The position numbers and the translations under genes were made by a program. Shown here one piece after another: positions 1,196 through 13,414 of a DNA stretch of 64,000 nucleotides. Positions within the stretch are counted from its first letter, which is position 1, and every line of letters starts with the position of its first letter. The notes under the pieces were generated by a model. It did not search any database, had not been told where the DNA came from, and worked only from the letters and a program-made list of their open reading frames with translations. Location of the stretch: NCBI GenBank assembly GCA_964347045.1, contig CAYFXC010000003.1, positions 115,722-179,721 on the forward strand, read 5' to 3'. The DNA is from an uncultured archaeon (GTDB lineage: Archaea; Asgardarchaeota; Hermodarchaeia; Hermodarchaeales; Hermodarchaeaceae).

Positions 1196-2550
1196 GGGTT
1201 CGGAAACTGGTGTAGAGCGCGGACTAGCTCTGTATAAAATTTCGCGGTTTGCGGAATTGAATCAAGAAGTACATGCTCGTTAGAACCATGCACACCATAT
1301 CCAATGGGACCAAAATCTATGGCTTGAATTGGACGGTCAGTAAAATGGCGCGTATCACTTGCCCCACCCAGTTCAATGGGTTCGGATTCTAGAGTGAGTT
1401 GAGTTGCGATAATCTGAGCCATTTGGACTAATTGAGAATCCTGAGGAGTGTTCATGAAGGCTTTGCCAACTCGTACAGACATCTCATATTCGATTTGTGC
1501 AAGTTTCTCAGATAGAACTGTGTTCAGAGCCTTTTCAATTGGTTGACTGTCAGACGTCATTGCCCTTCCATCAAAATAAATCTCCCATCGATTATTTTGC
1601 TCATATAACAAATTAGGGCAAAAGGTGATGCCATAATCACTGGGGTAGGTAGGGAATTGTATCCGAGTTATAGGTAATAGTGCTTGAAGAAGTTTTGTGA
1701 GGTTCTGATCACAAGTGCGAGTGTCTTCTTTTACCGAGTGAGTAGCATCAATTCCCTCAAATTCAAACCAATCTGGTACTACATTGCTTTTAACGTAGCT
1801 TCCAGCGGTTGAAGAGATATTAATATTTGGGTTTTGAAGGAGAAAACTGGATGCAGCAAGTAGAGCGTGTTTATCAACTCCAGGCAAAAAATAGGCCGAA
1901 TGCCGAGTTTGTCGTCCGGCATAATTTGTGGTGAATCGGTGTTTTTCGAATTTTCCATTACAAGGCTCCGGGTTTTGTGGAACCGAAACAGTGACCGAGA
2001 CCGTGTTTCGTCGACGGGTGACTATTTGCATTCCAACTCCGTCAGCAGTAATTAGGTAATCAGGAAACAGGTCTTGTTTTTCTAGTCTAGCTCGGACAAT
2101 CGGTGCTCCATTAATTCCCCCAATTTCTTCATCGCCTGTAATAACAAAAACTATGGTGCCTTCTATTTTGTGTTGAATTATTTCTTCTGCTGAAAGGAGT
2201 AGAGCGGTTGTGTTTCCTTTGTCATCAGCGGTTCCACGTCCATATCCCATTCTGTCTCGCACCGTTAGCTCAAAAGGATCAGTATCCCATCCTGGACCAA
2301 TAGGAACTACATCAAAATGAGCTAGCAACAAGGTTACTGGACGACCCCTTCCGTGAATGGCAAGAACTGAAAAAAACCCGTTTTGTTCAAGAATCTGAGC
2401 ATCATATCCCATCTCTGCTAGACGCTCATTCAGATATTCAGGGCATTCTCGTGTAGGCCGTATCATATTTCCTGGGTCATTGACTGTGGGAAATGCGATA
2501 AGATGTTGCAATATATTGATGTAATCCAATCCATATTCACTCCATTTCAT
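1192..2550 (-). CDS. M20 family metallopeptidase/deacylase (ArgE/DapE-like)
   Basis: HFDVVP, GRGTADDKG, DEEIGG, GGASD and HGSNE motifs. Start placed at ATG 2550, coupled to the map stop (TGATG). Confidence 0.9.
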   Translation of the reverse strand: MKWSEYGLDYINILQHLIAFPTVNDPGNMIRPTRECPEYLNERLAEMGYDAQILEQNGFFSVLAIHGRGRPVTLLLAHFDVVPIGPGWDTDPFELTVRDRMGYGRGTADDKGNTTALLLSAEEIIQHKIEGTIVFVITGDEEIGGINGAPIVRARLEKQDLFPDYLITADGVGMQIVTRRRNTVSVTVSVPQNPEPCNGKFEKHRFTTNYAGRQTRHSAYFLPGVDKHALLAASSFLLQNPNINISSTAGSYVKSNVVPDWFEFEGIDATHSVKEDTRTCDQNLTKLLQALLPITRIQFPTYPSDYGITFCPNLLYEQNNRWEIYFDGRAMTSDSQPIEKALNTVLSEKLAQIEYEMSVRVGKAFMNTPQDSQLVQMAQIIATQLTLESEPIELGGASDTRHFTDRPIQAIDFGPIGYGVHGSNEHVLLDSIPQTAKFYTELVRALHQFPNP

Positions 2551-3485
2551 CAATGTCGTGCGGTTGTTACGGTGCATCCGTTTTTTTCTACTATTAATGT
2601 GTGTTCAGCCTGGGCAATAGGGCTTCCATCCTTTAATCCTAATACTGAATAATTATGAATGCATCCCTCTCGTTTAAGCACGTTTAGTATTTGGGCTACT
2701 TTGTCTGGTTCTACTAGCTCAGCCATCCAACGGGACGCAAAAGGTAATTGACTAAATTTAATTTTCATCTGACTAAAAAGAGAGCGTAATTTGGGATCCT
2801 TTGGATTTCGCACGTGAGTAAATCCAAAAATATGCCCTGGTTCCAAATTATCAACATGAGGATTTTGGCTATAAGTGGCGAAGGGTTCAATAGCTACAAC
2901 CATGTTTTCCTTTAACCGAGGCGAGCTTGTACGTTCCGTTGCGTATGTCACCGAAGGAACAGATATTCCAGCATGAAGATTAAATTGTTCGATACTATGG
3001 CCTGTGAGGTTTTCAATCGGGCGCGTTTTCATCTGTTGCATTGCGGCTGAAATGGCTTTAGATACATTCCAAATGCGGATTCCTGCTCGAACGGTGTTAA
3101 TTGCTGCCTCCAAACCTGCTTCTGCTCCATCAATAAGCTGTTGAAGGCCTTCATCATCACCGACTAAAACAGTTCGAGCATTATCTGCAACAAAACCATC
3201 TATGTGTACACCCAGATCAATCTTTACGAGAGCAATATCCGGAATTTGCGTAGAATCATCTAAGCTTGGTGTATAATGAGCCGCATGATGATTTATCGAG
3301 ATGTTAATAGGAAACGCAGGTTTTCCACCAAGGCTTTGGATTTTAGTTTCTCCTGCTTCAGCAATTGAATATAATGGTTCACCTGCTTTTACGAGATCAC
3401 AAGAAAATACTAGTGCTTCCGAAGCGATTTTTCCAGCACGCTGTAATTTTTCGCGTGTTCGTTCAAACATTGCCATATCACGCAT
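2550..3485 (-). CDS. map: Type II methionine aminopeptidase
   Basis: AFPINIS..AAHYTP, KIDLGVHIDG..AD, NLTGH...LHAG, AIEPFAT and AQAEHT motifs. Confidence 0.95.
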   Translation of the reverse strand: MRDMAMFERTREKLQRAGKIASEALVFSCDLVKAGEPLYSIAEAGETKIQSLGGKPAFPINISINHHAAHYTPSLDDSTQIPDIALVKIDLGVHIDGFVADNARTVLVGDDEGLQQLIDGAEAGLEAAINTVRAGIRIWNVSKAISAAMQQMKTRPIENLTGHSIEQFNLHAGISVPSVTYATERTSSPRLKENMVVAIEPFATYSQNPHVDNLEPGHIFGFTHVRNPKDPKLRSLFSQMKIKFSQLPFASRWMAELVEPDKVAQILNVLKREGCIHNYSVLGLKDGSPIAQAEHTLIVEKNGCTVTTARH

Positions 3486-3509
3486 ATCAAATCGTTTCCG
3501 TTAAGTGGA

Positions 3510-3540
3510 TTTGTCTAATTTCACGTGAAATTAAGACAAA
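3510..3540. promoter_or_regulatory. Near-perfect palindrome (candidate operator) in the divergent map / tubulin-operon intergenic region
   Basis: TTTGTCTAATTTCAC|GTGAAATTAAGACAAA: perfect 18-bp core TAATTTCACGTGAAATTA; the outer arms pair with one extra A. Confidence 0.55.
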
Positions 3541-3664
3541 ATTTGTCGTTGACTTTAATTTAGGTATTACTCCTAGTTTAGCTAAAGGTCAAAAAGAGTT
3601 AAGAATAGACTTTCCAATGGTTAAGAAAGGTGGATGTAAGCCACTTACCTCGGGGGCTCCGAAT

Positions 3665-6361
3665 GTGACTACATTAGCAGAGCTTCGCAAGTACTACTCC
3701 ATGCTAAAAGATATTAGTGCAAAATGTCGGACAATTATGGGTGGTCTCCCTTCTGAAATTAAAACCTCATTGGAAGATGTGGGACGGGAACTTGTAAGCC
3801 TAGAAGGTTTTGATAGGGATGCAAAAACGAGTTGGTCCCTAAGTCCGAAAAAACGTCGTCTTATAAAGCAAATTGATCAAGGGCTGCCAAAAATCGATGA
3901 AGATCTCTCTCGTTCACTTCGACTTCACATTGAGCTGTTGAAGACTTACATGACTGAGCTTGAAGAGCTAAAAGCAACAATAATGACTTTTGATATTAAA
4001 CTAGGACGTGATCTCAACAATCTCACCTTTCCTTCGACACAAGGGGGACATTCAGTTGTTTTGCCGGTTCTTTCACGATTTGTAGCTAATTTTGAAGGTC
4101 TTTCTAAACAATTACGTGACGCTCTACTAAAGCAAACGAATGATATGCTTGAACAAAATCGGGCGTTGATTAAAACCTACGATCGGTTTGTTGGTATTGA
4201 CACGAGTGATGTTTCAATTAGTGCCGAGCGGGAAACTGTTGATGTGAGTACTATCCCGGAGCTTTTTGAAATTCGCAAGACACTACGCCAAGAGCATGAA
4301 TATCTCACAAGTCGACGTGGCGAAGTTGTTGATACATTACGAGCGAAACTGCAAGCTAGTATTGAATCCTCCGTATCCCTCTTAGAGACTGCTCGTAGTT
4401 TGAGTCTCAAAGTTCCTATGGCTATTTCTACATCACTTGAAGCGCTGAAAAAACAACTCAAAGGTGAGACTAATCTCACCACACTTCTCGGGTTGGTTCA
4501 ACAATATGATGGGCAAGTGTTAAAAGCCTCAAGTGAAGTCAGAAGCCAAATACTTGAATTTGGTCATAATCTTAACCGCATTCTTGCTAGCGCTAATATC
4601 GCTAGTGAAGCCACTTTTCTTCCTCCTTTACCTCCTGAAGTTCCCAAAGATGCGGATTTAGCTGCGCTAGTTGCAAGCTATGAACGCCTACAAGCATACC
4701 ATACCAATGTTGAAACAGCTATCCGTGCTGAGATCATGCGTATAGTAGATGATTTGACTCGTGCTGTAAAACGGAATGTGCTTCCAAACACTGCGGAACT
4801 AGATAAATTCGTGAAAAATGAATCGAAAAAGGTAAAGAAAGGAGATCTGAAAGTTCTTGTCAAGGTATACTCCGAGGTTGCGGCTCAAATAATTGATGAA
4901 CATGGAAAATTACTAGCTGAAATTAGAACTCAAGAAGCTTTACTAACTCGAATCTCAGAAACCGCTAGTACAATTCTTGATAAAACCACAATGGGTGCAG
5001 CTCCTGCTCCTGTTCGAACCACAGACATTAGCTTCCCTGAGTTGGTTGAGGCGTATGCAAGACTACGAAAGCATGTTGAGAATCGGATCGATCTGTTCCG
5101 AAAAGCTTGGGAACGTGAACTCAACGCGCTTCTTGCTGAAATCCAAGTGATAAAACCAACCTATCGGGAATCTTTCAAAACCATGGAAGAATTTTTGGAA
5201 AGTGCTATTGCACATATCCGCGCTAGTACTAGTTTCGAGGAAATTGAAGAAGTCGCCCGTGAGGCTCAAGGAGATGCTCTATATAAAGCGCAAGACGCCA
5301 TTGAAAATCTCAAATATCGCCTAGATCTCAAACTGCGATTGGCGGTTTCAAAACTTTTAGGTATGGGGTTAACTATTCCTTCGGAAGTCCAGTCAGCCAT
5401 TCAAGAACTGACAACGGTGGTCCCCGCTAGTGAAACCTATGAAGAAGCGATTCGTAAGGCCCATCACATTGTTGAACTTTTCGAAAAACGAATTGTGGGA
5501 TACTTCAACCAGACTCTTAATGAACAAATCAAAGCCTTCTCAGAGTTAACAAGCGTGTCTGCTTCCTTGGGCATCAAAACAGACTCTTATGTCAAAGAAT
5601 CAATGAAACTGCAGGACAAATTACCCGCAAATATTGAGGAACTCCCTGACCGGTTCGACGAACTTCGTGAATTACTTACCGACCCTAAGTTGCTTAAGGA
5701 TATCCGTTCGAAAGCCAACGAAGTCTGGCGAAATCTCAATTCAGTTACTGATCTTCTTGAACGTCATGGACAAGCCGAGATTGTAGCTAAACTAAAGGAT
5801 CTGCTCGCTCGTGTTCCCGACGCCTTAGAAGCTGAACAAGTAAACACTGTTCTTGAAATTTGTATGGCTCTCATTGAAGCGCAAAATAGTGTACTTGATA
5901 TTCTTCGCAACATGGAGCAAAAGACTGGACAAGCATACGAGCAGTTATTAGAAAATACTACCGAATACTACTCAACGATTAAAAGAGTATACGCGGCACG
6001 ACCGCTTGAATTTAGCAAAATCATATTTCCGTTAGATACTTTGCAGAATTTGCGTGGAAAATTAGAAACCGTTAATTCTCTACCCGAATCTATTGATATA
6101 TTCACAACCATCCGCAGTTTAGAACAGCAATGGTTAGAAAAAATCAAAGAGCTTGATGAATGGCACAAGGCGCTCCGCGTTTTCCTCGCTGACTTTAATC
6201 CAGCGGCGCCTAAAGCTGAACGTAATCGTCAACTCAACGAAATCGAAAAAAGAATTCGCGAAACCTATACGCGCGAGGATACTGCAAACTACCTCACTTG
6301 GGCTGCCAGAGAACTTGCAGCTGTCATGATCGAACAAAAAACAAAAGCAAAGAAAAAATAG
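3665..6361 (+). CDS. Large all-alpha-helical repeat / coiled-coil protein (~898 aa), first gene of the tubulin operon
   Basis: L/E/K/R-rich amphipathic helices throughout, with no TM segment and no Walker A. Start placed at GTG 3665 after GGGGG; the upstream ORF extension overlaps map. Confidence 0.8.
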   Translation: MTTLAELRKYYSMLKDISAKCRTIMGGLPSEIKTSLEDVGRELVSLEGFDRDAKTSWSLSPKKRRLIKQIDQGLPKIDEDLSRSLRLHIELLKTYMTELEELKATIMTFDIKLGRDLNNLTFPSTQGGHSVVLPVLSRFVANFEGLSKQLRDALLKQTNDMLEQNRALIKTYDRFVGIDTSDVSISAERETVDVSTIPELFEIRKTLRQEHEYLTSRRGEVVDTLRAKLQASIESSVSLLETARSLSLKVPMAISTSLEALKKQLKGETNLTTLLGLVQQYDGQVLKASSEVRSQILEFGHNLNRILASANIASEATFLPPLPPEVPKDADLAALVASYERLQAYHTNVETAIRAEIMRIVDDLTRAVKRNVLPNTAELDKFVKNESKKVKKGDLKVLVKVYSEVAAQIIDEHGKLLAEIRTQEALLTRISETASTILDKTTMGAAPAPVRTTDISFPELVEAYARLRKHVENRIDLFRKAWERELNALLAEIQVIKPTYRESFKTMEEFLESAIAHIRASTSFEEIEEVAREAQGDALYKAQDAIENLKYRLDLKLRLAVSKLLGMGLTIPSEVQSAIQELTTVVPASETYEEAIRKAHHIVELFEKRIVGYFNQTLNEQIKAFSELTSVSASLGIKTDSYVKESMKLQDKLPANIEELPDRFDELRELLTDPKLLKDIRSKANEVWRNLNSVTDLLERHGQAEIVAKLKDLLARVPDALEAEQVNTVLEICMALIEAQNSVLDILRNMEQKTGQAYEQLLENTTEYYSTIKRVYAARPLEFSKIIFPLDTLQNLRGKLETVNSLPESIDIFTTIRSLEQQWLEKIKELDEWHKALRVFLADFNPAAPKAERNRQLNEIEKRIRETYTREDTANYLTWAARELAAVMIEQKTKAKKK

Positions 6362-6373
6362 GGTTGGATTAAC

Positions 6374-7723
6374 ATGGAAGCAACTGATGAAGGACCGCGA
6401 GTCGCGGAAGTATTTGCCATCGGAATTGGAGAATGCGGAAGCAACCTCGTTGGGGCCTACCTCAAGCAAGCGCGTGAACGCATGCTACCACCACGTATCC
6501 GCGGATACTTGTGCATGAATACTGATCGATCCGACATAACGAAGCTCCGTCAAAAATATGACATTCCCAAAGAAAACACTCTCCTTTATGGCGCATCAGA
6601 TATTGGTTGTGGCGGGAATTTTACTGATGGTTATAATTACGTTCATGACTTTAAAGATGTCATCATGGGTCAGTTGACGCAACTGGGGTTTGAGGGAGTC
6701 TCTGGGTTTGTCATATTTACGTCATCGGGCGGTGGAACTGGCTGTGGAGGCGCCCCCGCTTTAATTGAGATATTAAAGGAAAGATTTCAAGAGGAAGAAG
6801 GCCGTCGCATTTTCGTCTACGTCTTTACCGTACTTCCTTTCAAGGATCAAACCTCTGAAGCTCTCAACACTATGTGGTCGCTCTCCAAACTTCTGCGTGG
6901 GCAATTAGAAGATCGCGGAGCTGATCTTGTTTGTCTCCTTAGTAACCGCGCTATGCTTCGACGTATTCTGGCTTGGCGAGAAGGCGAAGTAGCTGATTTC
7001 TTACAAAAGCAGTTACAAATTGATGTGGCTAAAGTTACCGATGTTGAAGGAATGGTTCCTTCAACTGTCGATGGTGCCGATGATGTGTCCAAGGCACAAG
7101 AATCAGCTTTTGTGGAACTCGTGAATCCTCTTGCGCTTAGGTTTGTTGAGCACATGCTAAGTCCTGGCGTCGTTGAGCCGGGTAAAGAAGTTTTTCCGAC
7201 AACGGACATCGCAGACTACGCAAGGAAACTGGATCCTATTGTGGTGCCCTGTCTATATACTGATGTAAGTCTAATTCCCTCTGCTGGAAACATTCCGACG
7301 CAACTAAAAACAATGGTCAAATATGCCGTTGAACATTGTAGCTTTGCCGAAATCGGTTCAGAGCCAGGGGCTTCATCGACATATTATACCTTCTCAGGAA
7401 CTCGTGAATATGCACGAGCTGAATACGATCCACATATTAAACAGGCGCTTCGCCCTTATATTGCAAAGGGCGCAGCGATTACACCCTGTTTTGTGTCCTA
7501 TGATGAGGACACCCATCCATCTGATTTACTTCTTCTTTTGGGACTTCCTCAGATTCCTGAAATTGAGGATTTGGTAAATTCAGCTACTGAACTTGTGGAT
7601 CTTCATGCAGGTCCCTCGCCACTTCGAAGAGGTTGGTTTAAGAAATCTAAGGGTGTCGGTGAAGAAGTTCTTCGTGCATCCATCCGTGATGTTGCTGAAT
7701 TATTCAATCTCGAAATGAAGTAA
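6374..7723 (+). CDS. Tubulin/FtsZ-superfamily GTPase, tubulin-like
   Basis: T1 GIGECGSNL, T2 MNTD, T3 GCGGNFTDGY, signature SSGGGTGCG, VLPF..EALN, LLSNRAM, T7 TTDIAD. C-terminus GWFKKSKGVGEEVLRASIRDVAEL resembles tubulin H11'-H12. Confidence 0.9.
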   Translation: MEATDEGPRVAEVFAIGIGECGSNLVGAYLKQARERMLPPRIRGYLCMNTDRSDITKLRQKYDIPKENTLLYGASDIGCGGNFTDGYNYVHDFKDVIMGQLTQLGFEGVSGFVIFTSSGGGTGCGGAPALIEILKERFQEEEGRRIFVYVFTVLPFKDQTSEALNTMWSLSKLLRGQLEDRGADLVCLLSNRAMLRRILAWREGEVADFLQKQLQIDVAKVTDVEGMVPSTVDGADDVSKAQESAFVELVNPLALRFVEHMLSPGVVEPGKEVFPTTDIADYARKLDPIVVPCLYTDVSLIPSAGNIPTQLKTMVKYAVEHCSFAEIGSEPGASSTYYTFSGTREYARAEYDPHIKQALRPYIAKGAAITPCFVSYDEDTHPSDLLLLLGLPQIPEIEDLVNSATELVDLHAGPSPLRRGWFKKSKGVGEEVLRASIRDVAELFNLEMK

Positions 7724-7750
7724 ATTAAGCATTAGTGGAGAAGAAGAAGG

Positions 7751-8761
7751 TTGATAACAGCAGAAGAATTGCTGGAACGCATCCTCATTCTCACCACAGT
7801 CAACTCCACTCTTATTCATGCTCTTATTACCATAGAAGCCGAAGGAGATCTTAATCCTAAACAAATCAACCAGCTTGCTAGAGGAGTCCGGGCGGTTCGA
7901 GAATCGGTTGAGCAAGCACTAGTCGACTCAAAAAATAACAATATTTCTTCAGGTTCGTCCTTTGTGGATGACACCATCAAAGTTATTCTCACTCATCTTG
8001 AACGCATTGAAGCAGCCTTGGACTCATATGCGAAATCGCGAAAGAGAAAAATCTCAAAAGTGGAAGTAAAAGAACCCATTATTGCTACCCAACAACTAGT
8101 TGCTGAAGCTAGCGAGGATCTTGCGGGACTTACTAGTAAGCCATTTCAACGTCGACTTTCTGTTTTTGATCCGGATAAGCTTCTTCCACCTATTCAGCAG
8201 TTATTGGATAAGTATTCCAGCAGGAGTCACCTTCTTTTACCCAATTATTGGTTCGAATCATGTCGGGAGCTATTCCGATACAGTGAACCACGTGAGGTGA
8301 TCAAAGAAGTTACGCGTATAGCAAGTCAAATTTTCTACTCTCTTACACGCCGATTTCTTGCTGAAGCACCCTGTGCAGGTCTGCTTCAAGAACTTTCACG
8401 AAAAGGTTCACTAGGCAACGAATTAAACAGCCGTGAACGGAATAAAATCGCGGGAACTAGTAGTGAGTTCTATGATCAGCTTGCTAAAGCTCTAAAAGAA
8501 AATTCAGTAAAATCGAGTATTTCAGATGCTAAACGGAGTCTTCGCTCCTTTGATTGGGGTCCGGCTGACGTAGAGAAACGGGTAGTTGGTGTAATTCATC
8601 GCAGTGCACGAGAACTTGTGGACCAAGCTGCAGATGGTAAGACTCTTTCAGTCCTAGAACGAATTATCCACGCTGAGCTTAGTCGCTACATCTCTGCGTT
8701 AGCTACGAATCTCCATAACTTACCGCGATTAAACAAATTGTTAACCGATATGAAGGTCTAA
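7751..8761 (+). CDS. Uncharacterised all-helical protein (336 aa), third gene of the tubulin operon
   Basis: Long ORF 27 bp after the tubulin stop, purine-rich leader, amphipathic helices, no recognisable motif. Confidence 0.75.
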   Translation: MITAEELLERILILTTVNSTLIHALITIEAEGDLNPKQINQLARGVRAVRESVEQALVDSKNNNISSGSSFVDDTIKVILTHLERIEAALDSYAKSRKRKISKVEVKEPIIATQQLVAEASEDLAGLTSKPFQRRLSVFDPDKLLPPIQQLLDKYSSRSHLLLPNYWFESCRELFRYSEPREVIKEVTRIASQIFYSLTRRFLAEAPCAGLLQELSRKGSLGNELNSRERNKIAGTSSEFYDQLAKALKENSVKSSISDAKRSLRSFDWGPADVEKRVVGVIHRSARELVDQAADGKTLSVLERIIHAELSRYISALATNLHNLPRLNKLLTDMKV

Positions 8762-9360
8762 GTTGGGTATAGTCGCTTCTTTAATTGTGCGTTCCCTGTT
8801 TCAACGTCATAATCAATCAAATCTGCTCGAGAAAGGTCGCCCAATGCTTTTCTGATTGCAGTAGCTTCATGTCCGGCTGTTTTTGTAATCTCGTCGCGGG
8901 TCATCTTTTTCTTCTTTCCATGCAAAAGGAACAATGTCTTCGCATGGGGTTGAGCATAAAAGACGTCTTCAAGTAACGCAATGTATAGGGCTAACAATTC
9001 CTGAACCGGGATTGATGTTTCTTGTTCAGCTACCAGCTCTTTGTAGGTGTCAGACATCTTCTCTAATTGTGTCTTAATGGCGTTAAGTTCTGATTCTAAA
9101 GCTCGGTTCTTGACCATCAAATCAGTTGATTTATCCGCTGATTCCTTCAGTTCATTGATTGTTCTTTCCAATCTGTCAATGGTCGCATTCTTGTTTTGAA
9201 GGTCACTGGTTAATTCCTCTATGCGTGCTTCTGCGGTTTTATTCCGTTCACGTTGCTCTACAAGCTCTTGGTTCATGTCATTGACAATTTTTTGAACTTT
9301 TTTTACAGTCTTTGTGGCTTCAGCAGGATAATCCTTTTCGGGTGGTTTCTCAGTTGCCAT
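8758..9360 (-). CDS. N-terminal coiled-coil plus C-terminal winged-helix protein
   Basis: Heptad-rich N-terminal half, then MTRDEITKTAGHEATAIRKALGDLSRADLIDYD (wHTH pattern). AGGTGA RBS precedes ATG 9360. Confidence 0.75.
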   Translation of the reverse strand: MATEKPPEKDYPAEATKTVKKVQKIVNDMNQELVEQRERNKTAEARIEELTSDLQNKNATIDRLERTINELKESADKSTDLMVKNRALESELNAIKTQLEKMSDTYKELVAEQETSIPVQELLALYIALLEDVFYAQPHAKTLFLLHGKKKKMTRDEITKTAGHEATAIRKALGDLSRADLIDYDVETGNAQLKKRLYPT

Positions 9361-9427
9361 TCTATTCACCTTCTATTGTCACTTTACATTGCTTAGGGTT
9401 TCTTGTATTTATGGCTAGAGTTTTCAT

Positions 9428-10459
9428 CTACTTAGTGTTTTTTTGTTTGCGAGTTGCAATACGGTTGAGTTGAGGTGGTGGCGGAGGTGCTACAATTGAT
9501 TCTTGGGTAAAATCGAAAATAGTTATCACGTCATTTTCAAACGTTGCCTTCAGTTGTTGTGTAGAATCCACAGTTCCCAATGAGGTGGCTGTTAATTTAT
9601 GTTCTTTAAAGATGGATATGACCGATTTAACATTATCCGGAATAGTCGTGACGATAAACCCTGTCGAGATGTACATTTTCAACCAAGTAGTTAAATCAAG
9701 ATTCTTTGGAACAGGTATAGCCGCAAAATCGATGGTTGCGCCCTTTTGCGCATACTCCAACATTAGAAGGCTTGTCCCAATAATGCCTCCGTTGCTCAAA
9801 TCCTTTGATGCGGTAAGAAGACATCGTTCTGCAAGAACTCGCATTGCTTCATATCGTTTGAGAACATCCTTCGACTTCTTAAGGGCGGTAGTGTCCCATC
9901 CAAACTCATAATTCGGAGAAACACGTCCTTCTAAATCGACTGCTAGAATGAGCTGATCACCTGGCTGAGCTCCACCCGCACTGATATAGGCTTCTCTGGG
10001 AACTGTTCCACAAATTGATGCACTTACTCCATTAATCGGGGCATTGGGTGTCGTATGTCCTCGGACTACTTCAACTTTGAACTTTTGCCCCGCGTCACAG
10101 ATTCCTTCCATAAACTTCACACCTGCTTCCATTTCAGTGAATGCGACGTTAACCATAGCCACAATTGGGCGTCCACCCGCTGCATAGATATCATTCACAT
10201 TAACAAGGATAGCAGCATACCCGGCAACATACGGCTTAGACTCCGCTAGTTCTGGGATGACTGCATCTGTTGAAAGCAAAATAAGATTATCTCCACCCAG
10301 GTCAATGGCTGCGGAGTCCTCTCCAATTGAAGAGAGAACATGTGGGCATTTGAACCCTTCATTTCGAAGAATTGTTACCAGTTGACCAATTGGTTGTTTA
10401 CGGCGTAATCCCCAATAGTCTTTTACATCAGAAACGATAGTAGACAACTTTTCAGGCAT
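9428..10459 (-). CDS. AIR-synthase-related (PurM/ThiL superfamily; methanogenesis marker 2 / sll0787-like) protein
   Basis: IGEDSAAI, VNVNDIYAAGGRP, GHT, AQPGD and KDLSNGGIIG motifs. Confidence 0.85.
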   Translation of the reverse strand: MPEKLSTIVSDVKDYWGLRRKQPIGQLVTILRNEGFKCPHVLSSIGEDSAAIDLGGDNLILLSTDAVIPELAESKPYVAGYAAILVNVNDIYAAGGRPIVAMVNVAFTEMEAGVKFMEGICDAGQKFKVEVVRGHTTPNAPINGVSASICGTVPREAYISAGGAQPGDQLILAVDLEGRVSPNYEFGWDTTALKKSKDVLKRYEAMRVLAERCLLTASKDLSNGGIIGTSLLMLEYAQKGATIDFAAIPVPKNLDLTTWLKMYISTGFIVTTIPDNVKSVISIFKEHKLTATSLGTVDSTQQLKATFENDVITIFDFTQESIVAPPPPPQLNRIATRKQKNTK

Positions 10460-10565: not shown

Positions 10566-11957
10566 TTAACCAGTTATTGAAACTCCATCAATGAGCAGGC
10601 TTGGGGTTGATACAAATAATGAAGTAATTTCAATATCACTCCCGATTTCACGCAACTGCTCTAATCCTGTATAGAAGTTGCCTGCAATCGACACAGGTTC
10701 AAGAGGATGCTTCTTTTCTCCGTTTTCTATTAGAAACACCGAATTTGCCACTGCTGAAAATTCGCCCGTTGCAACGGTACTATGAAAGATTCCAATTGGA
10801 ATATCCATTATTAGCAATCCTTTCCCGTCAATTGAAGCAATGAGGTCTTCCTGAGATTTCTTCCCTTGTCTGACTTCAAGATTCTTTCCAAATATTGTGG
10901 GGGCATGTTCATAGGGTAAACGGGACCCAAATGGTCCTCCTGAACGAGCACTATTACCTGTTGATCCGGTTCCTGCAATCCGCCCATAGTATGAATCAAA
11001 AAGGAAGCCTCTCAAAACACCTTTCTCGATAATGGTGGTTTTTCCTTGCGGATGACCCTCCGCATCAATTGCCTCAGTCGAGATTCCCAGAGGATCTTGC
11101 CCATCATCAACGAGTGTTAAACTAGAATGTGCGATTTTTTCTCCAAGCTTATTACTTAATGGGGACACGCCTTCAACAACTGCTTGTCCCTTGGCGGATT
11201 GTTGAAGACTTGCTAAAATGTAGCTTGCTGCCGCCCAAGGTACCCATAAAGTAGGCAATTTAGTGGTTTGATTCAATCTCTTTGTTCCTAGCATGCTTAT
11301 GGCTTTGTCAGCTGCTTTTTGTCCAATACCAGTAACATCGAGTGCCTTCTCTCGAGTGATTAATTCCTCTGAAGCTGTTCTTCGTTCCTCTCCCTCAATC
11401 GCCATAGCGTAAGCACTACAGGCGTTATGTGCTGAGGTTGATGCCTGCTGCAGACCTAGCGAATTGCCAATGGCAAAACCACCCCACGTTCTTAGACATT
11501 CAACTGCTGCTAGTATACGACCATTTGCTTTGGTCACGTCTCCAATTAATTGGAGAGACGATTTTACCAAATCCTCTGTTGTTATCTCAAGAATCTCATT
11601 GGAAAATTTACCTTCTTTTCCAGGAGGTTTTGGTTCGCAAAATCCCTTGAAGCGTGTGTCTTTTTCTGAAGTTGCCTTCAAACTTGCTAAAGCGTCTTTT
11701 ATGCTTCTTTTTATCTGGTTGGCTGCTATTCCACTCGAAGAAGAAAAACTAACACGTTGGTCTTTTGACATTCGTACGGCATTTCCTGCTACAATTCCAT
11801 CGGTTGCTTCTACAATCCCCTGTTTAATTTCCACATTCGACTCACTTCGGTAATACAAGAACAATTCAAAGTCTGCAGTCTTATCCAAAGATTGCGCAAA
11901 TTTAAGACCCGAATCCACTTCCGCCAGTAATGTATCCTTTATTTTCTCATATTCCAT
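10566..11957 (-). CDS. TldD/PmbA family, PmbA/TldE-type subunit
   Basis: DAEGHP, GSTGNSAR and ATGEFS..IENGE motifs; no HExxxH. Confidence 0.9.
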   Translation of the reverse strand: MEYEKIKDTLLAEVDSGLKFAQSLDKTADFELFLYYRSESNVEIKQGIVEATDGIVAGNAVRMSKDQRVSFSSSSGIAANQIKRSIKDALASLKATSEKDTRFKGFCEPKPPGKEGKFSNEILEITTEDLVKSSLQLIGDVTKANGRILAAVECLRTWGGFAIGNSLGLQQASTSAHNACSAYAMAIEGEERRTASEELITREKALDVTGIGQKAADKAISMLGTKRLNQTTKLPTLWVPWAAASYILASLQQSAKGQAVVEGVSPLSNKLGEKIAHSSLTLVDDGQDPLGISTEAIDAEGHPQGKTTIIEKGVLRGFLFDSYYGRIAGTGSTGNSARSGGPFGSRLPYEHAPTIFGKNLEVRQGKKSQEDLIASIDGKGLLIMDIPIGIFHSTVATGEFSAVANSVFLIENGEKKHPLEPVSIAGNFYTGLEQLREIGSDIEITSLFVSTPSLLIDGVSITG

Positions 11958-11977
11958 CAGAGTTCATCTCCGTTCTT

Positions 11978-13414
11978 CTAGGCTTTTCCTCCGAACGTCA
12001 CATCTCGAATGAGGAGTTTCGGTCCTCCAAGACCCGTAGGTAATGGGCGTTGCCCGCTCTTTCCGCAACCTCCAAAATATGTCCCCCACAAATTAATATC
12101 TCGTGTAGCTCCCTCTACACGTTGAAGTAATTGTAGAATATTCCCTGAAAGTGATACCTCTCGGATTGGATGTTGGATTTTACCATTTTCTACCCAATAT
12201 CCTCTATTTGCTTTGAAAAGGAAACTGCCATCTCCTTCCACTTGTCCACCCATCGTTTGTATTGCATAGATACCGGTTCCCAATTGCTCAAGTGCTTCCT
12301 CTTCTGTAAGATCGCCAGGTGTGAAGAACGTGTTTGTCATACGTGGGATAGGCATGAACCCAAAGTGAACCGCACGACAATTTCCAGTAGGTTTTTGTTC
12401 TAATTTCTGTGCAGTCCCTCTGCTATGAAGAAAATGCTTGAGAACGCCTTTTTCAAGAATTGTTGTCATATCGGCTGGAGTGCCTTGATCATCAAAGGGA
12501 AGCCAAAGCCCTCCTATTTTATTAATATCAGGAATTCCCCCATCAATAATAGTGGCATGTTTAGTTCCAAGTCTTTTTCCAATTTTTCCTGCTAATGGCG
12601 AGACTCCGATTGTAACGAAATCACCTTCGCTGAGGTGGCCAAAACTTTCATGAGCTAGCACGCCGGTTAAGGCATTATCAATAAGTGTTGAAAATTTTCC
12701 CGCGGGGCATGCCTTTGCTTTGAGTTGCTCTGAAGCAAGTTCGCCTGCTGTTTTCCCAATCTCTTCTGGTGTAGTCTCTTTTTGAGTATAAACTTCTAGA
12801 CCAAAACTTCCTGCTTTTCGCTCCGATGCAAATACGAGTTCGCCAGAACTGGTTTTTGATATAACACGACAGGTTAAATCGATTACAAGAAATTCCCAAT
12901 CGATATTTGTTTCTTCACTATTGGTAAAGATTTTTTGACCATATAATTCGCCATAGGCTCCTGTAATATTTTCAATATTTTTTCCGTGATCAGAAGCGTT
13001 CTCCACCATTCGGTTGATGAGGTTCATTTTAAATTCTTGGGATTCTGTTTTTGGGTGGATTTTCACAGAGCGTGTATCTGTCGGTTTACTTTTCACCCTT
13101 GATCTTCTTTCAAAATTTAGCTTTAGAGACGCTGCTGTTGAAGCGGCTTTTGCCATTTTAAAGGCACGATTAACTGTTTCTTCAATATCATTAACAACTT
13201 CACTAGCTGTAAAGGAATAACCCGCTGTTCCACCAAAATAACAAGTAACTCCAATCCCTGTACGGAATTTTGAAAGGATATCCTTCCAGGTGTCATCTTT
13301 TTTTGTCTTGATTCGCCTTAATGTATGGAGGGTAAAATCATCAAAACGGGCTTCAACAAAATCTGCTCCAAGTCTCTCGCCCAATGAGACTGCATCTTGA
13401 AGTTTATCTAGCAT
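11978..13414 (-). CDS. tldD: TldD/PmbA family, TldD-type metalloprotease subunit
   Basis: HESFGHLSEGD zinc motif, PRMTNT and GCGKSGQ. Confidence 0.9.
   Translation of the reverse strand: MLDKLQDAVSLGERLGADFVEARFDDFTLHTLRRIKTKKDDTWKDILSKFRTGIGVTCYFGGTAGYSFTASEVVNDIEETVNRAFKMAKAASTAASLKLNFERRSRVKSKPTDTRSVKIHPKTESQEFKMNLINRMVENASDHGKNIENITGAYGELYGQKIFTNSEETNIDWEFLVIDLTCRVISKTSSGELVFASERKAGSFGLEVYTQKETTPEEIGKTAGELASEQLKAKACPAGKFSTLIDNALTGVLAHESFGHLSEGDFVTIGVSPLAGKIGKRLGTKHATIIDGGIPDINKIGGLWLPFDDQGTPADMTTILEKGVLKHFLHSRGTAQKLEQKPTGNCRAVHFGFMPIPRMTNTFFTPGDLTEEEALEQLGTGIYAIQTMGGQVEGDGSFLFKANRGYWVENGKIQHPIREVSLSGNILQLLQRVEGATRDINLWGTYFGGCGKSGQRPLPTGLGGPKLLIRDVTFGGKA

What the first reader, a model, noticed from the sequence alone, without database searches (positions are those of the whole stretch)
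6374..7723. Divergent tubulin-like GTPase carrying the eukaryotic-type C-terminal H11-H12 helices
By-eye alignment to beta-tubulin is collinear: GECGSNL/GQCGNQI; GCGGNFTDGY/GAGNNWAKGHY; GFVIFTSSGGGTGCG/GFQLTHSLGGGTGSG; FTVLP..EALNTMWSL/FSVVP..EPYNATLSV; SNRAM/DNEAL; TDIADYARKLDP/ADLRKLAVNMVP. The C-terminus (aa ~394-445) GWFKKSKGVGEEVLRASIRDVAELF matches [24 protein letters not shown], the H11'-H12 element that FtsZ lacks and that forms the MAP/motor-binding surface of tubulin. The T7 loop keeps two acidic residues (D278, D281), as in FtsZ and alpha-tubulin, so it could be a self-activating homopolymer. The T1-T2 distance is short, as in FtsZ/CetZ (no long H1-S2 lateral loop), and there is no acidic tail. 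Inference: a mosaic intermediate, possibly a new archaeal tubulin clade distinct from OdinTubulin, AtubA/B and CetZ.
Basis: partly seen in the sequence, partly recalled or inferred. Interest (0 to 1): 0.88.

Follow-up and report, generated by a model that had tools for sequence, protein, structure and literature searches.

The report
Asgard tubulin-like GTPase with partners
This gene encodes a real, strongly conserved tubulin/FtsZ-type GTPase of Asgard archaea with a tubulin-like C-terminal helix pair, but its family was already named "Asg.Tub" in 2023; what I add is a fixed three-gene operon and a predicted partner-binding face.

Summary
Window 6374-7723 (+) is an intact 449-aa tubulin/FtsZ-superfamily GTPase (Pfam PF00091, E 2.8e-18). 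Its nucleotide-binding motifs and a TTDxxD T7 motif are invariant across 57 relatives.

An AlphaFold2 model (pLDDT 83, pTM 0.85) matches CetZ and tubulins equally well (Z 32-34). Only tubulins align through the last helices (aa 416-443), which supports the H11'-H12 reading. A profile-profile hit at the collinear tubulin site gives weak sequence support (E 1.4e-4).

- The clade is distinct from canonical CetZ, FtsZ and true tubulins.
- It is not new. It is the "Asg.Tub" group of Santana-Molina et al. [quoted passage not shown]
- Its position between CetZ and tubulin stays unresolved in my trees.

What I add:
- Distribution is all-or-none by lineage (126 of 400 Asgard genomes).
- It never co-occurs with true tubulins in this sample.
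- The operon large helical protein → Asg.Tub → small helical protein is conserved in 21 of 22 loci.
- The small partner is predicted to bind the H2-H3 lateral face (ipSAE 0.70, best control 0.01).

No biochemistry exists. The scan's other notes on this stretch are re-reads of the same genome.

The parts
6374..7723 (+). Asg.Tub-family tubulin/FtsZ-superfamily GTPase, 449 aa (P0001)
   Evidence: ORF. PF00091 E 2.8e-18. 139 Asgard homologues at 48-94% identity. AF2 pLDDT 83.2, pTM 0.85. VIA Z 32-34 to CetZ and tubulins.
6422..6445 (+). T1 loop, GIGECGSN (aa 17-24), phosphate binding
   Evidence: G17, G19, E20, G22 and N24 are invariant in 57 sequences. Aligned to the CetZ T1 loop by HHalign.
6728..6751 (+). 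T4 tubulin signature, GGGTGCGG (aa 119-126)
   Evidence: Invariant. Aligned to GGGTGSG of tubulins, CetZ and FtsZ.
6527..6685 (+). H2, H2-S3 loop and H3 (aa 52-104): predicted docking face for the small partner, on the lateral side of the GTPase domain
   Evidence: Interface residues from complex prediction are 52, 55-56, 59, 65-74, 76, 93, 95-96, 99-100 and 102-104. ipSAE 0.70/0.70/0.64, best control 0.01.
6977..7081 (+). Variable, low-confidence insert between H6 and H7 (aa 202-236); it holds a second GxDxAD-like motif
   Evidence: pLDDT 46-52. Length varies in the family alignment. HHalign places the FtsZ T7 loop here with low confidence.
7196..7219 (+). Putative T7 loop/H8 start, PTTDIADY (aa 275-282), with D278 and D281 as the inferred catalytic pair
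   Evidence: P275, D278 and D281 are invariant. The motif follows the long core helix 237-265 and precedes helix 279-283 in the model. D-x-x-D spacing is as in FtsZ NxDxxD and alpha-tubulin NxDxxE (established knowledge). The position is an inference.
7556..7702 (+). C-terminal helices H11 (aa 395-411), H11' (416-425) and H12 (430-443)
   Evidence: AF2 helices at pLDDT 90-95. Tubulin alignments reach model residue 447, CetZ only 409-418. HHalign of aa 412-449 alone hits tubulin positions 392-418 of 425 (E 1.4e-4) and nothing collinear in CetZ or FtsZ. W421, F422, K426 and G427 are invariant.
3617..6361 (+). Large all-helical operon partner ('big', 914 aa from ATG 3617; the TTG ORF from 3365 is probably too long); it ends 12 nt before the GTPase gene
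   Evidence: Homologues of 870-1185 aa sit directly upstream of Asg.Tub in 22 of 22 loci from 9 family-level lineages (20-31% identity outside the window's own family). No Pfam or NCBIfam family.
7751..8761 (+). Small helical operon partner ('small', 336 aa, P0003); it starts 27 nt after the GTPase gene
   Evidence: Directly downstream in 21 of 22 loci. Found in 123 of 400 Asgard genomes, in the same families as Asg.Tub. AF2 pLDDT 81, C-domain above 90. No Pfam, PDB or Atlas relative.
8555..8611 (+). Conserved F.WG(G)P.LEKR motif and following helix of the small partner (aa 269-287): predicted contact with Asg.Tub
   Evidence: G270, E275 and R277 are invariant and lie in the predicted interface 269-274, 276-277, 279-280, 283-284, 287. 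P207 and K335 lie in the interface too.

Best explanation
The gene encodes a member of the 'Asg.Tub' family. This is a deep, Asgard-restricted clade of the tubulin/FtsZ superfamily that stands beside canonical CetZ and bona fide tubulins rather than inside either.

Shown here: it has the complete GTP-binding apparatus, the two-domain tubulin fold and a tubulin-type H11/H11'/H12 helical cap.

Inferred: it binds GTP and polymerises head-to-tail as a homopolymer. The invariant D278/D281 of one subunit would complete the GTPase site of the next, as in FtsZ, CetZ and alpha-tubulin.

It does not act alone. It is always encoded between a ~900-1200-aa all-helical protein and a ~300-380-aa helical protein. 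The small protein is predicted to dock through its invariant EAP, WGxP.LEKR and C-terminal MK motifs onto H2, the H2-S3 loop and H3. In microtubules this is the lateral face that receives the neighbour's M-loop. The small partner would therefore decorate, cap laterally or cross-link protofilaments, not block elongation.

FtsZ is encoded elsewhere in the genome, so the system is most likely a non-division cytoskeleton involved in cell shape, membrane or internal organisation.
For: Superfamily membership and fold.

Family identity with the published Asg.Tub group.

Invariant T1, T4, N165, SN and TTDxxD motifs in 57 sequences spanning lineages labelled Hermod-, Thor-, Borr-, Baldr-, Heimdall- and Hodarchaeal.

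Separate clade: Asg.Tub plus two distant relatives 100/99, CetZ 99/94, tubulins 100/99, FtsZ 100/100. The CetZ label was checked with P0142, which matches CetZ1 4b46 at E 3e-113.

H11'-H12.

Homopolymer: one copy in most genomes, never an adjacent paralogue pair.

Operon: big-tub-small in 21 of 22 loci. By my hand count from the lists, 121 genomes hold both Asg.Tub and the small partner, 5 hold only Asg.Tub and 2 only the small partner.

Predicted binding: ipSAE 0.70, 0.70 and 0.64, best of 3 controls 0.01. The mark was reached by 58 of 80 solved complexes and 2 of 110 mismatched pairs. The runs share at least 97% of contacts and partner pLDDT is at least 78. The interface uses the partner's invariant residues.

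FtsZ elsewhere.

Asg.Tub is 42-64% identical across lineages, while the partners are 20-31% identical. That is the pattern expected of a polymer-forming core with faster-evolving accessories.
Against: There is no biochemical, structural or expression evidence for any family member. The literature search found only phylogenetic mentions. Polymerisation and GTPase activity are inferred from homology alone. The T7 assignment depends on a predicted model, and profile alignments of aa 200-290 are unreliable. Sequence support for H11'-H12 homology is weak. HHalign gives 52% probability at E 1.4e-4, and an HMM-versus-sequence test gave at best E 0.059. AlphaFold may lean on tubulin structures it was trained on. 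The complex score is the model's own confidence, and my alignments and the GTP ligand lie outside the tool's calibration. The role of the large partner is untested.
Confidence: 0.7

Rival explanations
1. Stem-tubulin reading. Asg.Tub is the sister lineage of bona fide tubulins, and its H11'-H12 cap is homologous to theirs. It would preserve a pre-tubulin state: homopolymer, short H1-S2 loop and CetZ-like GTPase domain.
For: The C-terminal helices superpose on tubulin H11'-H12. HHalign finds the collinear tubulin site and nothing in CetZ or FtsZ. The W[FY]...G...[ED][LFM]..A..[DN]...L motif occurs only in Asg.Tub and Asgard tubulins among 73 superfamily sequences (the motif was derived post hoc). 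The AU test does not reject Asg.Tub plus tubulins as one clade (p 0.26). A quick tree placed them in one group (SH-aLRT 89). The published Fig. 4 tree also placed them next to tubulins.
Against: The careful tree puts Asg.Tub with a Halo.Tub-like group (92/78) on the CetZ side, as does the published Fig. 6 tree. The GTPase domain is far closer to CetZ. PF03953 Tubulin_C does not match. Santana-Molina et al. argue from indels that the group is CetZ-like and that artubulins are the closer tubulin relatives. Long branches are involved.
Confidence: 0.25
2. Divergent CetZ reading. Asg.Tub is simply an Asgard-specific CetZ subfamily, and its extra C-terminal helices are a lineage-specific or convergent elaboration of the CetZ H11 and tail. 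Its function would be CetZ-like cell-shape control.
For: The best PDB sequence hit is CetZ1 4b46 (E 7e-10). HHalign to CetZ gives E 1.3e-26. The H1-S2 loop is short. One source names P0087 'Tubulin-like protein CetZ'. Both papers call the group CetZ-like or CetZ-related.
Against: It lies outside the canonical CetZ clade (99/94). An exclusive clade with CetZ is marginally disfavoured (p-AU 0.044). The whole C-terminal domain has no detectable sequence similarity to CetZ. CetZ structures end where H11 ends. The dedicated two-partner operon is not the context published for CetZ.
Confidence: 0.3
3. Non-filament reading. The protein is a GTPase subunit of a stable heterocomplex with its two helical partners, acting as a switch or nucleator rather than as a cytomotive filament.
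For: The three genes are strictly co-inherited. The partner is predicted with confidence to bind next to the T3/H3 region, which senses nucleotide state in the superfamily. A variable 35-residue insert precedes H7.
Against: Every motif of both longitudinal faces is invariant, including the T7 acidic pair, which matters only in a polymer. The predicted partner site leaves both longitudinal faces free. All characterised superfamily members with intact T7 polymerise (established knowledge).
Confidence: 0.1

Closest known systems
Asg.Tub group of Santana-Molina, del Saz-Navarro & Devos 2023 (Front Microbiol 13:1100249; PMC9871819). Probably the same as the 'CetZ-related Asgard archaeal clade' used as an outgroup in PMC13394414 / bioRxiv 2026.02.15.705738.
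   Same: It is the same protein family. Full-length collinearity is 50-64% identity to the published members' relatives, and the window protein falls in the same clade. The neighbouring genes are coiled-coil or helical, as the paper noted.
   Different: Nothing places it outside the family. The window protein is a new member, from a lineage whose close relatives are mostly labelled Hermodarchaeota, and it has no tail after H12. The paper described only 3-4 sequences. It found no C-terminal match to other families and gave no structure, operon definition or partner prediction.
CetZ (Haloferax volcanii CetZ1/CetZ2, PDB 4b46/4b45; Methanosaeta CetZ, 3zid)
   Same: CetZ has the closest GTPase-domain sequence. 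Both have a short H1-S2 loop, a single-gene homopolymer logic, H11 present and overall fold Z 33-34.
   Different: Asg.Tub lies outside the CetZ clade. The sequence of its C-terminal domain is unrelated. It has folded H11'-H12 where CetZ has a flexible tail with a terminal motif. It also has a dedicated two-partner operon.
Bona fide prokaryotic and eukaryotic tubulins (OdinTubulin 7evb, AtubA/B 9f6t, BtubA/B 2btq, alpha/beta/gamma-tubulin)
   Same: Both have the two-domain fold with the H11-H11'-H12 cap (Z 32-34 over about 360 residues), a W[FY]..G..A..[DN]..L motif in H11'-H12, and a T7 acidic pair as in alpha-tubulin.
   Different: Asg.Tub has no PF03953 match, no long H1-S2 loop, no acidic E-hook tail and no heterodimer gene pair. 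It lies outside the tubulin clade. It was never found in the same genome as a true tubulin among the 400 genomes sampled.
Halo.Tub-like non-canonical tubulin-superfamily proteins of Halobacteria (inferred identity of P0156, P0159, P0160 and P0164 here)
   Same: This is the nearest sister group in my careful tree (92/78) and in the published Fig. 6 tree (support 62). Both are long-branch groups between CetZ and tubulin.
   Different: Similarity is limited to the GTPase domain. The group lacks the W[FY]...G motif, belongs to a different phylum and has a different gene context (quasi-tandem copies, per the paper).

Membership tests
Tubulin/FtsZ superfamily | PF00091 GTPase domain above the gathering score, with the GGGTG[ST/C]G signature | tested here: met
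   67.3 bits against a cut-off of 33. GGGTGCGG is invariant.
Tubulin/FtsZ superfamily | Two-domain fold joined by core helix H7 | tested here: met
   AF2 pTM 0.85. VIA Z 32-34, rmsd about 3 A over 322-361 residues to CetZ and tubulins.
Tubulin/FtsZ superfamily | T7 loop acidic residues that activate GTP hydrolysis in the neighbouring subunit | tested here: inconclusive
   The invariant TTDxxD motif (D278, D281) sits at the T7/H8 position of the model. Profile alignments in this region are unreliable, and activity is untested.
Tubulin/FtsZ superfamily | GTP-dependent polymerisation | not testable with these tools
   This needs purified protein.
Asg.Tub (Santana-Molina 2023) | Clusters with the published seed sequences, with a collinear family-specific C-terminal domain | tested here: met
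   Supplement 35 is collinear with aa ~245-449. P0087 has the length and C-terminal tail of seed OLS26264.1, is 50% identical over 98% of the query, and lies in the clade supported 100* and 100/99.
Asg.Tub (Santana-Molina 2023) | Restricted to Asgardarchaeota | tested here: met
   Nearly all named full-length homologues are Asgard MAGs; three members of one cluster carry other MAG labels. At 50% clustering of 1.84 billion proteins only 2 full-length representatives exist, plus a 33% relative of unknown origin.
Canonical CetZ | Membership of the CetZ clade | tested here: not met
   The CetZ clade (99/94) excludes it. An exclusive clade with CetZ gives p-AU 0.044.
Canonical CetZ | CetZ-type C-terminal domain ending in H11 plus a flexible tail with a conserved terminal motif | tested here: not met
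   No sequence similarity beyond aa 196. Solved CetZ chains align only to model residue 409-418, and Asg.Tub adds two folded helices.
Bona fide tubulin | PF03953 Tubulin_C domain | tested here: not met
   No hit at E up to 1. No match in the window's genome at 1e-5, while 8 other Asgard genomes match.
Bona fide tubulin | H11-H12 helices covering the outer surface | tested here: met
   This holds in a predicted model only: helices 395-411, 416-425 and 430-443. Alignments to tubulins extend to model residue 447 and chain residue 420-434. HHalign gives a collinear hit at E 1.4e-4.
Bona fide tubulin | Membership of the tubulin clade | tested here: not met
   The tubulin clade (100/99) excludes it. 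Sisterhood is not rejected (p-AU 0.26).
FtsZ | TIGR00065 equivalog score and a place in the FtsZ clade | tested here: not met
   26 bits against a cut-off of 295. The FtsZ clade (100/100) excludes it. The genome's FtsZ is on another contig.

The most novel reading that the evidence does not exclude
Asg.Tub would be the surviving sister of the tubulin lineage. The H11'-H12 outer-surface cap would then have arisen before true tubulins, on a CetZ-like homopolymer. The conserved big and small helical proteins would be the first dedicated filament-associated proteins of that lineage, giving a three-component Asgard cytoskeleton. It is near-universal in Thorarchaeia and in a Hodarchaeales-like genus, and it is mutually exclusive with true tubulins in this sample.
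Probability: 0.2. Interest if true: 0.85.

Novelty: new member of a known kind. Interest (0 to 1): 0.55.

Why it matters
How tubulin arose from an FtsZ/CetZ-like ancestor is an open question in eukaryogenesis. Asg.Tub is widespread in Asgard archaea, including Hodarchaeales-type lineages, but the literature has treated it only as a long branch or an outgroup.

Three points from this work give experimentalists a concrete, testable system:
- The family is predicted to carry a tubulin-type H11'-H12 cap on a CetZ-like GTPase domain.
- It is always encoded with two dedicated helical partners.
- It was not found together with true tubulins in the genomes sampled.

The work also sets a caution for tubulin phylogenies that use this clade as a CetZ outgroup. 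None of this is yet more than prediction.

Tried and rejected
Expression: no RNA holder is listed for window 3365-8761. One DNA run holds the stretch and is probably the source sample.

Partner folds:
- The Atlas feature search gave no usable hit for the small partner. For the large partner it returned only an unnamed archaeal (mostly Thorarchaeota) cluster of similar length, at a score of 0.88 that counts only as a lead.
- A PDB profile search with the small-partner alignment gave only noise (best E 0.027).
- VIA wide search of the small-partner model matched only generic three-helix bundles over aa 1-108 (Z about 10). The C-domain was barely tested.
- NCBIfam and Pfam give nothing for either partner.

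C-terminal sequence test: an HMM of aa 412-449 searched against single sequences plus reversed and shuffled decoys was only marginal. The best hit was an Asgard tubulin at the collinear site, E 0.059. I do not count it as support.

T7 mapping: global HHalign to tubulin and CetZ places their T7-H8 near aa 240-254, and local HHalign to FtsZ places its T7 at aa 213-220. All three have very low confidence. I kept the AF2-topology mapping (D278/D281) and flag it as inference.

Fourth operon member: the convergent coiled-coil gene at 8758-9369 (-) is adjacent only in the window's own family (2 of 22 loci), so I rejected it as a conserved part.

Distant relative P0127 (33% identity): its downstream 262-aa gene shows only faint similarity to the small partner's WG..EKR motif (HHalign probability 18%, E 0.0014). 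No large partner lies upstream. I did not count it as the same operon.

Not done:
- The Duggin et al. 2015 CetZ paper is not held. The statement that CetZ has H11 plus a tail but no H12 rests on my own knowledge and on the chain ranges.
- Homodimer or protofilament prediction, because the single complex-prediction job went to the partner.
- Eukaryotic tubulins and artubulins could not be added to my trees, because no session sequence was available. The tubulin clade is represented by Asgard tubulins only.
Full report
**The gene.** Window 6374-7723 (+) is an uninterrupted ATG-started ORF of 449 aa. It starts 12 nt after the end of a large upstream ORF, and another ORF follows 27 nt downstream on the same strand. 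It scores 67.3 bits on Pfam PF00091, the Tubulin/FtsZ GTPase domain (cut-off 33, E 2.8e-18, aa 12-195). The C-terminal half has no Pfam family. NCBIfam's FtsZ equivalog scores 26 bits against a cut-off of 295. Against PDB sequences the best hit is Haloferax CetZ1 4b46 (E 7e-10, N-terminal domain only). Gamma-tubulin, AtubA and OdinTubulin follow at about 1e-5 to 1e-4.

**The family.** A word-indexed search found 139 relatives. Nearly all named ones are Asgard MAGs, labelled Thor-, Hod-, Heimdall-, Hermod-, Loki- and Asgardarchaeia. They are full length (about 440-480 aa) and 48-94% identical. An exhaustive HMMER scan of 1.84 billion 50%-identity representatives found only two full-length representatives (54% and 44% identity) and one 33% relative. 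After that there is a jump to hits at E 1e-9 or worse that cover the GTPase domain only. The C-terminal domain is therefore family-specific in sequence. The window's 90%-identity cluster is mostly labelled Hermodarchaeota. Other clusters are labelled Borrarchaeum and Baldrarchaeia.

In a 57-sequence alignment (A1, mean column identity 59%) the following are invariant:
- T1: G17, G19, E20, G22, N24.
- T4: GGGTGCGG.
- N165, and S190-N191.
- F246, N251, P252.
- The P-TTD-xx-D motif (P275, D278, D281).
- W421, F422, K426, G427.

**It is a known family.** Santana-Molina et al. [quoted passage not shown] They described it as branching unstably with tubulins or with CetZ. They found its C-terminus matched nothing by HMM, and they noted neighbours that are unknown coiled-coil genes. 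Their C-terminal alignment (supplement 35) is collinear with aa ~245-449 of the window protein. The seed OLS26264.1 (Heimdall LC-3, 454 aa) has the same length and C-terminal tail as P0087, which sits in the query's clade. The term "Asg.Tub" occurs in no other held paper. [quoted passage not shown] I found no structural, biochemical or cell-biological work on the family.

**Structure.** AlphaFold2 on A1 gives pLDDT 83.2 and pTM 0.85. Low confidence is confined to aa 1-8 and to a variable insert at aa about 201-240. After S6, the order of elements matches the tubulin topology:

| Element | Residues |
|---|---|
| H6 | 191-201 |
| insert | about 202-236 |
| H7 | 237-265 |
| T7 | 266-278 |
| H8 | 279-283 |
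| S7 | 289-295 |
| H9 | 307-321 |
| S8 | 333-343 |
| H10 | 349-362 |
| S9 | 363-376 |
| S10 | 384-390 |
| three terminal helices | 395-411, 416-425, 430-443 |

Foldseek ranks OdinTubulin, CetZ1/2, BtubA and eukaryotic tubulins together at E about 1e-18. VIA-align gives Z 34.3 for both Methanosaeta CetZ (322 aligned residues, model 10-418) and OdinTubulin (361 aligned, model 9-447 to chain 2-420). It gives Z about 32 for beta-tubulins (about 357 aligned, model 10-447 to chain 1-424/434). CetZ chains end at model residue 409-418. So the last two helices have a structural counterpart only in tubulins, namely H11' and H12.

**Sequence tests of the mosaic idea.**
- HHalign of A1 against profiles built here gives CetZ score 198 (E 1.3e-26, aa 12-196), Asgard tubulins 81 (E 4.5e-10, aa 52-199) and FtsZ 72. 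The GTPase domain is clearly CetZ-like.
- The segment aa 412-449 alone finds its best local match at the collinear tubulin positions 392-418 of 425 (score 29, E 1.4e-4, probability 52%). It finds nothing collinear in CetZ or FtsZ (E 0.1-0.5).
- The shared pattern is W-[FY], then G five or six residues later, then [ED]-[LFM], A, [DN], L and Y at matching spacing. Among 73 superfamily sequences it occurs only in Asg.Tub and Asgard tubulins. I derived that pattern post hoc.
- An HMM-versus-sequence test with decoys was only marginal.

I conclude that H11'-H12 homology with tubulin is plausible but weakly supported by sequence.

**T7.** Both are invariant, and their spacing matches FtsZ NxDxxD and alpha-tubulin NxDxxE. 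Profile alignments of aa 200-290 are unreliable and disagree with this placement. The assignment is therefore an inference from predicted topology.

**Phylogeny.** I combined Asg.Tub representatives, the distant hits, Asgard tubulins found with PF03953 and Asgard FtsZs. A careful IQ-TREE run (LG+C20+F+G4 PMSF, 52 rows, 390 columns) recovers five clades:

| Clade | Support (UFBoot/SH-aLRT) |
|---|---|
| FtsZ | 100/100 |
| tubulins | 100/99 |
| canonical CetZ | 99/94 |
| Halo.Tub-like group | 100/100 |
| Asg.Tub plus two distant relatives | 100/99 |

The CetZ label was checked with P0142, which matches CetZ1 4b46 at E 3e-113. Asg.Tub is sister to the Halo.Tub-like group (92/78), as in the published Fig. 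6 tree. Relations among the major clades are weak. A quick 73-row tree instead grouped Asg.Tub with tubulins (SH-aLRT 89). AU tests do not reject Asg.Tub plus tubulins as one clade (delta lnL 4.35, p 0.26). An exclusive Asg.Tub plus CetZ clade is borderline (delta lnL 8.57, p 0.044). The family is thus a separate deep clade whose position between CetZ and tubulin I could not resolve. My set lacks eukaryotic tubulins and artubulins.

**Distribution.**
- Of 400 Asgard genomes, 126 carry the family, in an all-or-none pattern by family-level lineage. Present: f1 14/18, f5 4/4, f10 21/22, f28 5/5, and 76/89 in three further families that include f31. Absent: f7 0/31, f12 0/12, f19 0/14, f20 0/135.
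- Most genomes have one copy. Nine genomes of genus g21 have two.
- True tubulins (PF03953) occur in 8 of the 400 genomes. All 8 are in lineages without Asg.Tub. This covers only four lineages, so it is an anecdote, not a statistic.
- The window's genome (89% complete) has one FtsZ and this gene as its only PF00091 loci.
- Three fuller genomes with Asg.Tub have one or two FtsZ genes and no CetZ or tubulin.

**Operon.** I examined 22 loci from nine family-level lineages (the tally's eight codes plus L006, whose lineage is named but uncoded). In all 22, the gene is preceded on the same strand by a homologue of the large helical protein (870-1185 aa; 20-31% identical outside the window's own family). 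In 21 of 22 it is followed by a homologue of the small helical protein (293-380 aa; 23-29% identical outside the window's own family). The exception is the second paralogue of one genome. The small protein occurs in 123 of 400 genomes, in exactly the same lineages. By my hand count, 121 genomes have both genes, 5 have only Asg.Tub and 2 have only the small protein, which is consistent with MAG incompleteness. The convergent coiled-coil gene at 8758-9369 is adjacent only in the window's own family. Neither partner has a Pfam, NCBIfam, PDB or Atlas relative. The small protein folds with confidence (pLDDT 81). It has an N-terminal three-helix bundle, a disordered linker at aa 101-128 and a helical C-domain at aa 130-336 with pLDDT above 90.

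**Predicted complex.** Asg.Tub (A1) with GTP and the small partner (A2) scored ipSAE 0.70, 0.70 and 0.64, against a best control of 0.01. The tool's mark was reached by 58 of 80 solved complexes and 2 of 110 mismatched pairs. The runs share at least 97% of their contacts and partner pLDDT is at least 78. My own alignments and the riding ligand lie outside the calibration. The interface joins Asg.Tub residues 52-59, 65-76 and 93-104 to partner residues 206-207, 269-287 and 335-336. On Asg.Tub these are H2, the H2-S3 loop and H3. On the partner they include five of its eight invariant positions (P207, G270, E275, R277, K335). In microtubules H2-S3 and H3 form the lateral face that receives the neighbouring M-loop (established knowledge). 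The partner would therefore bind the side of a protofilament and leave both longitudinal faces free. It is not predicted on the H11'-H12 surface. This supports binding but does not show it.

**Verdict.** The mosaic description is supported by prediction. The claim of a new clade fails, because the family was named in 2023. The evolutionary "intermediate" reading remains open. The new content here is predictive only: the tubulin-type C-terminal cap, the strictly conserved three-gene module, the predicted lateral-face partner and the lineage distribution. I rate the finding as a new member of a known but uncharacterised kind, of moderate-to-good interest.

Noticed in passing
window 8758-9369 (-): A 203-aa coiled-coil protein converges on the operon and overlaps the end of the small partner by 4 bp. 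It has weak sub-threshold Pfam hits to Laminin_II and Filament. It is adjacent only in the window's own family (2 of 22 loci); a 41%-identical relative lies elsewhere in L006.
   Followed up: partly
window 7010-7033 (aa 213-220 of the GTPase): A second T7-like motif (family consensus G-x-D-x-A-D; D217 at least 90% conserved) lies inside the low-confidence insert before H7. HHalign aligns the FtsZ T7 loop (NLDFAD) to it. In the window protein the second acidic residue is a lysine. Its meaning is unknown.
   Followed up: partly
window 3365-3616: The listed TTG ORF of the large partner (998 aa) overlaps the divergent M24 peptidase gene (2550-3485, -). Orthologues (914 aa in L066) point to ATG 3617 as the true start.
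   Followed up: partly
L003:102-1037 and L006:4532-5113: An Arf/Ras-family small GTPase gene lies near the operon in a Heimdall-type locus (three genes upstream) and directly upstream of the large partner in an Asgardarchaeia locus. There is none next to the operon in the window.
   Followed up: no
G000 whole genome; G067: The window's genome (89% complete) shows only one FtsZ paralogue. G067 (one contig, 96% complete) also has a single FtsZ, of the other paralogue type, plus two Asg.Tub operons. Other Asg.Tub genomes have two FtsZ genes.
   Followed up: partly
L005:8001-9374 (P0127) and P0137: These are distant sisters of Asg.Tub (33-35% identity) from unnamed metagenome contigs. P0127 lies in a different context (SMC-ScpA and pyrD genes upstream). 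Its 262-aa downstream gene faintly resembles the small partner's interface motif (HHalign E 0.0014).
   Followed up: partly
L072 (G067:C1:2892428-2903738): In genus g21 a second, more divergent Asg.Tub paralogue (about 49% identical to the query) has its own large partner but no BLAST-detectable small partner.
   Followed up: no
window 10566-13414 (-): A tandem TldD/PmbA metallopeptidase pair, preceded by an AIR-synthase-related gene (9428-10459). These are ordinary housekeeping genes unrelated to the operon.
   Followed up: no
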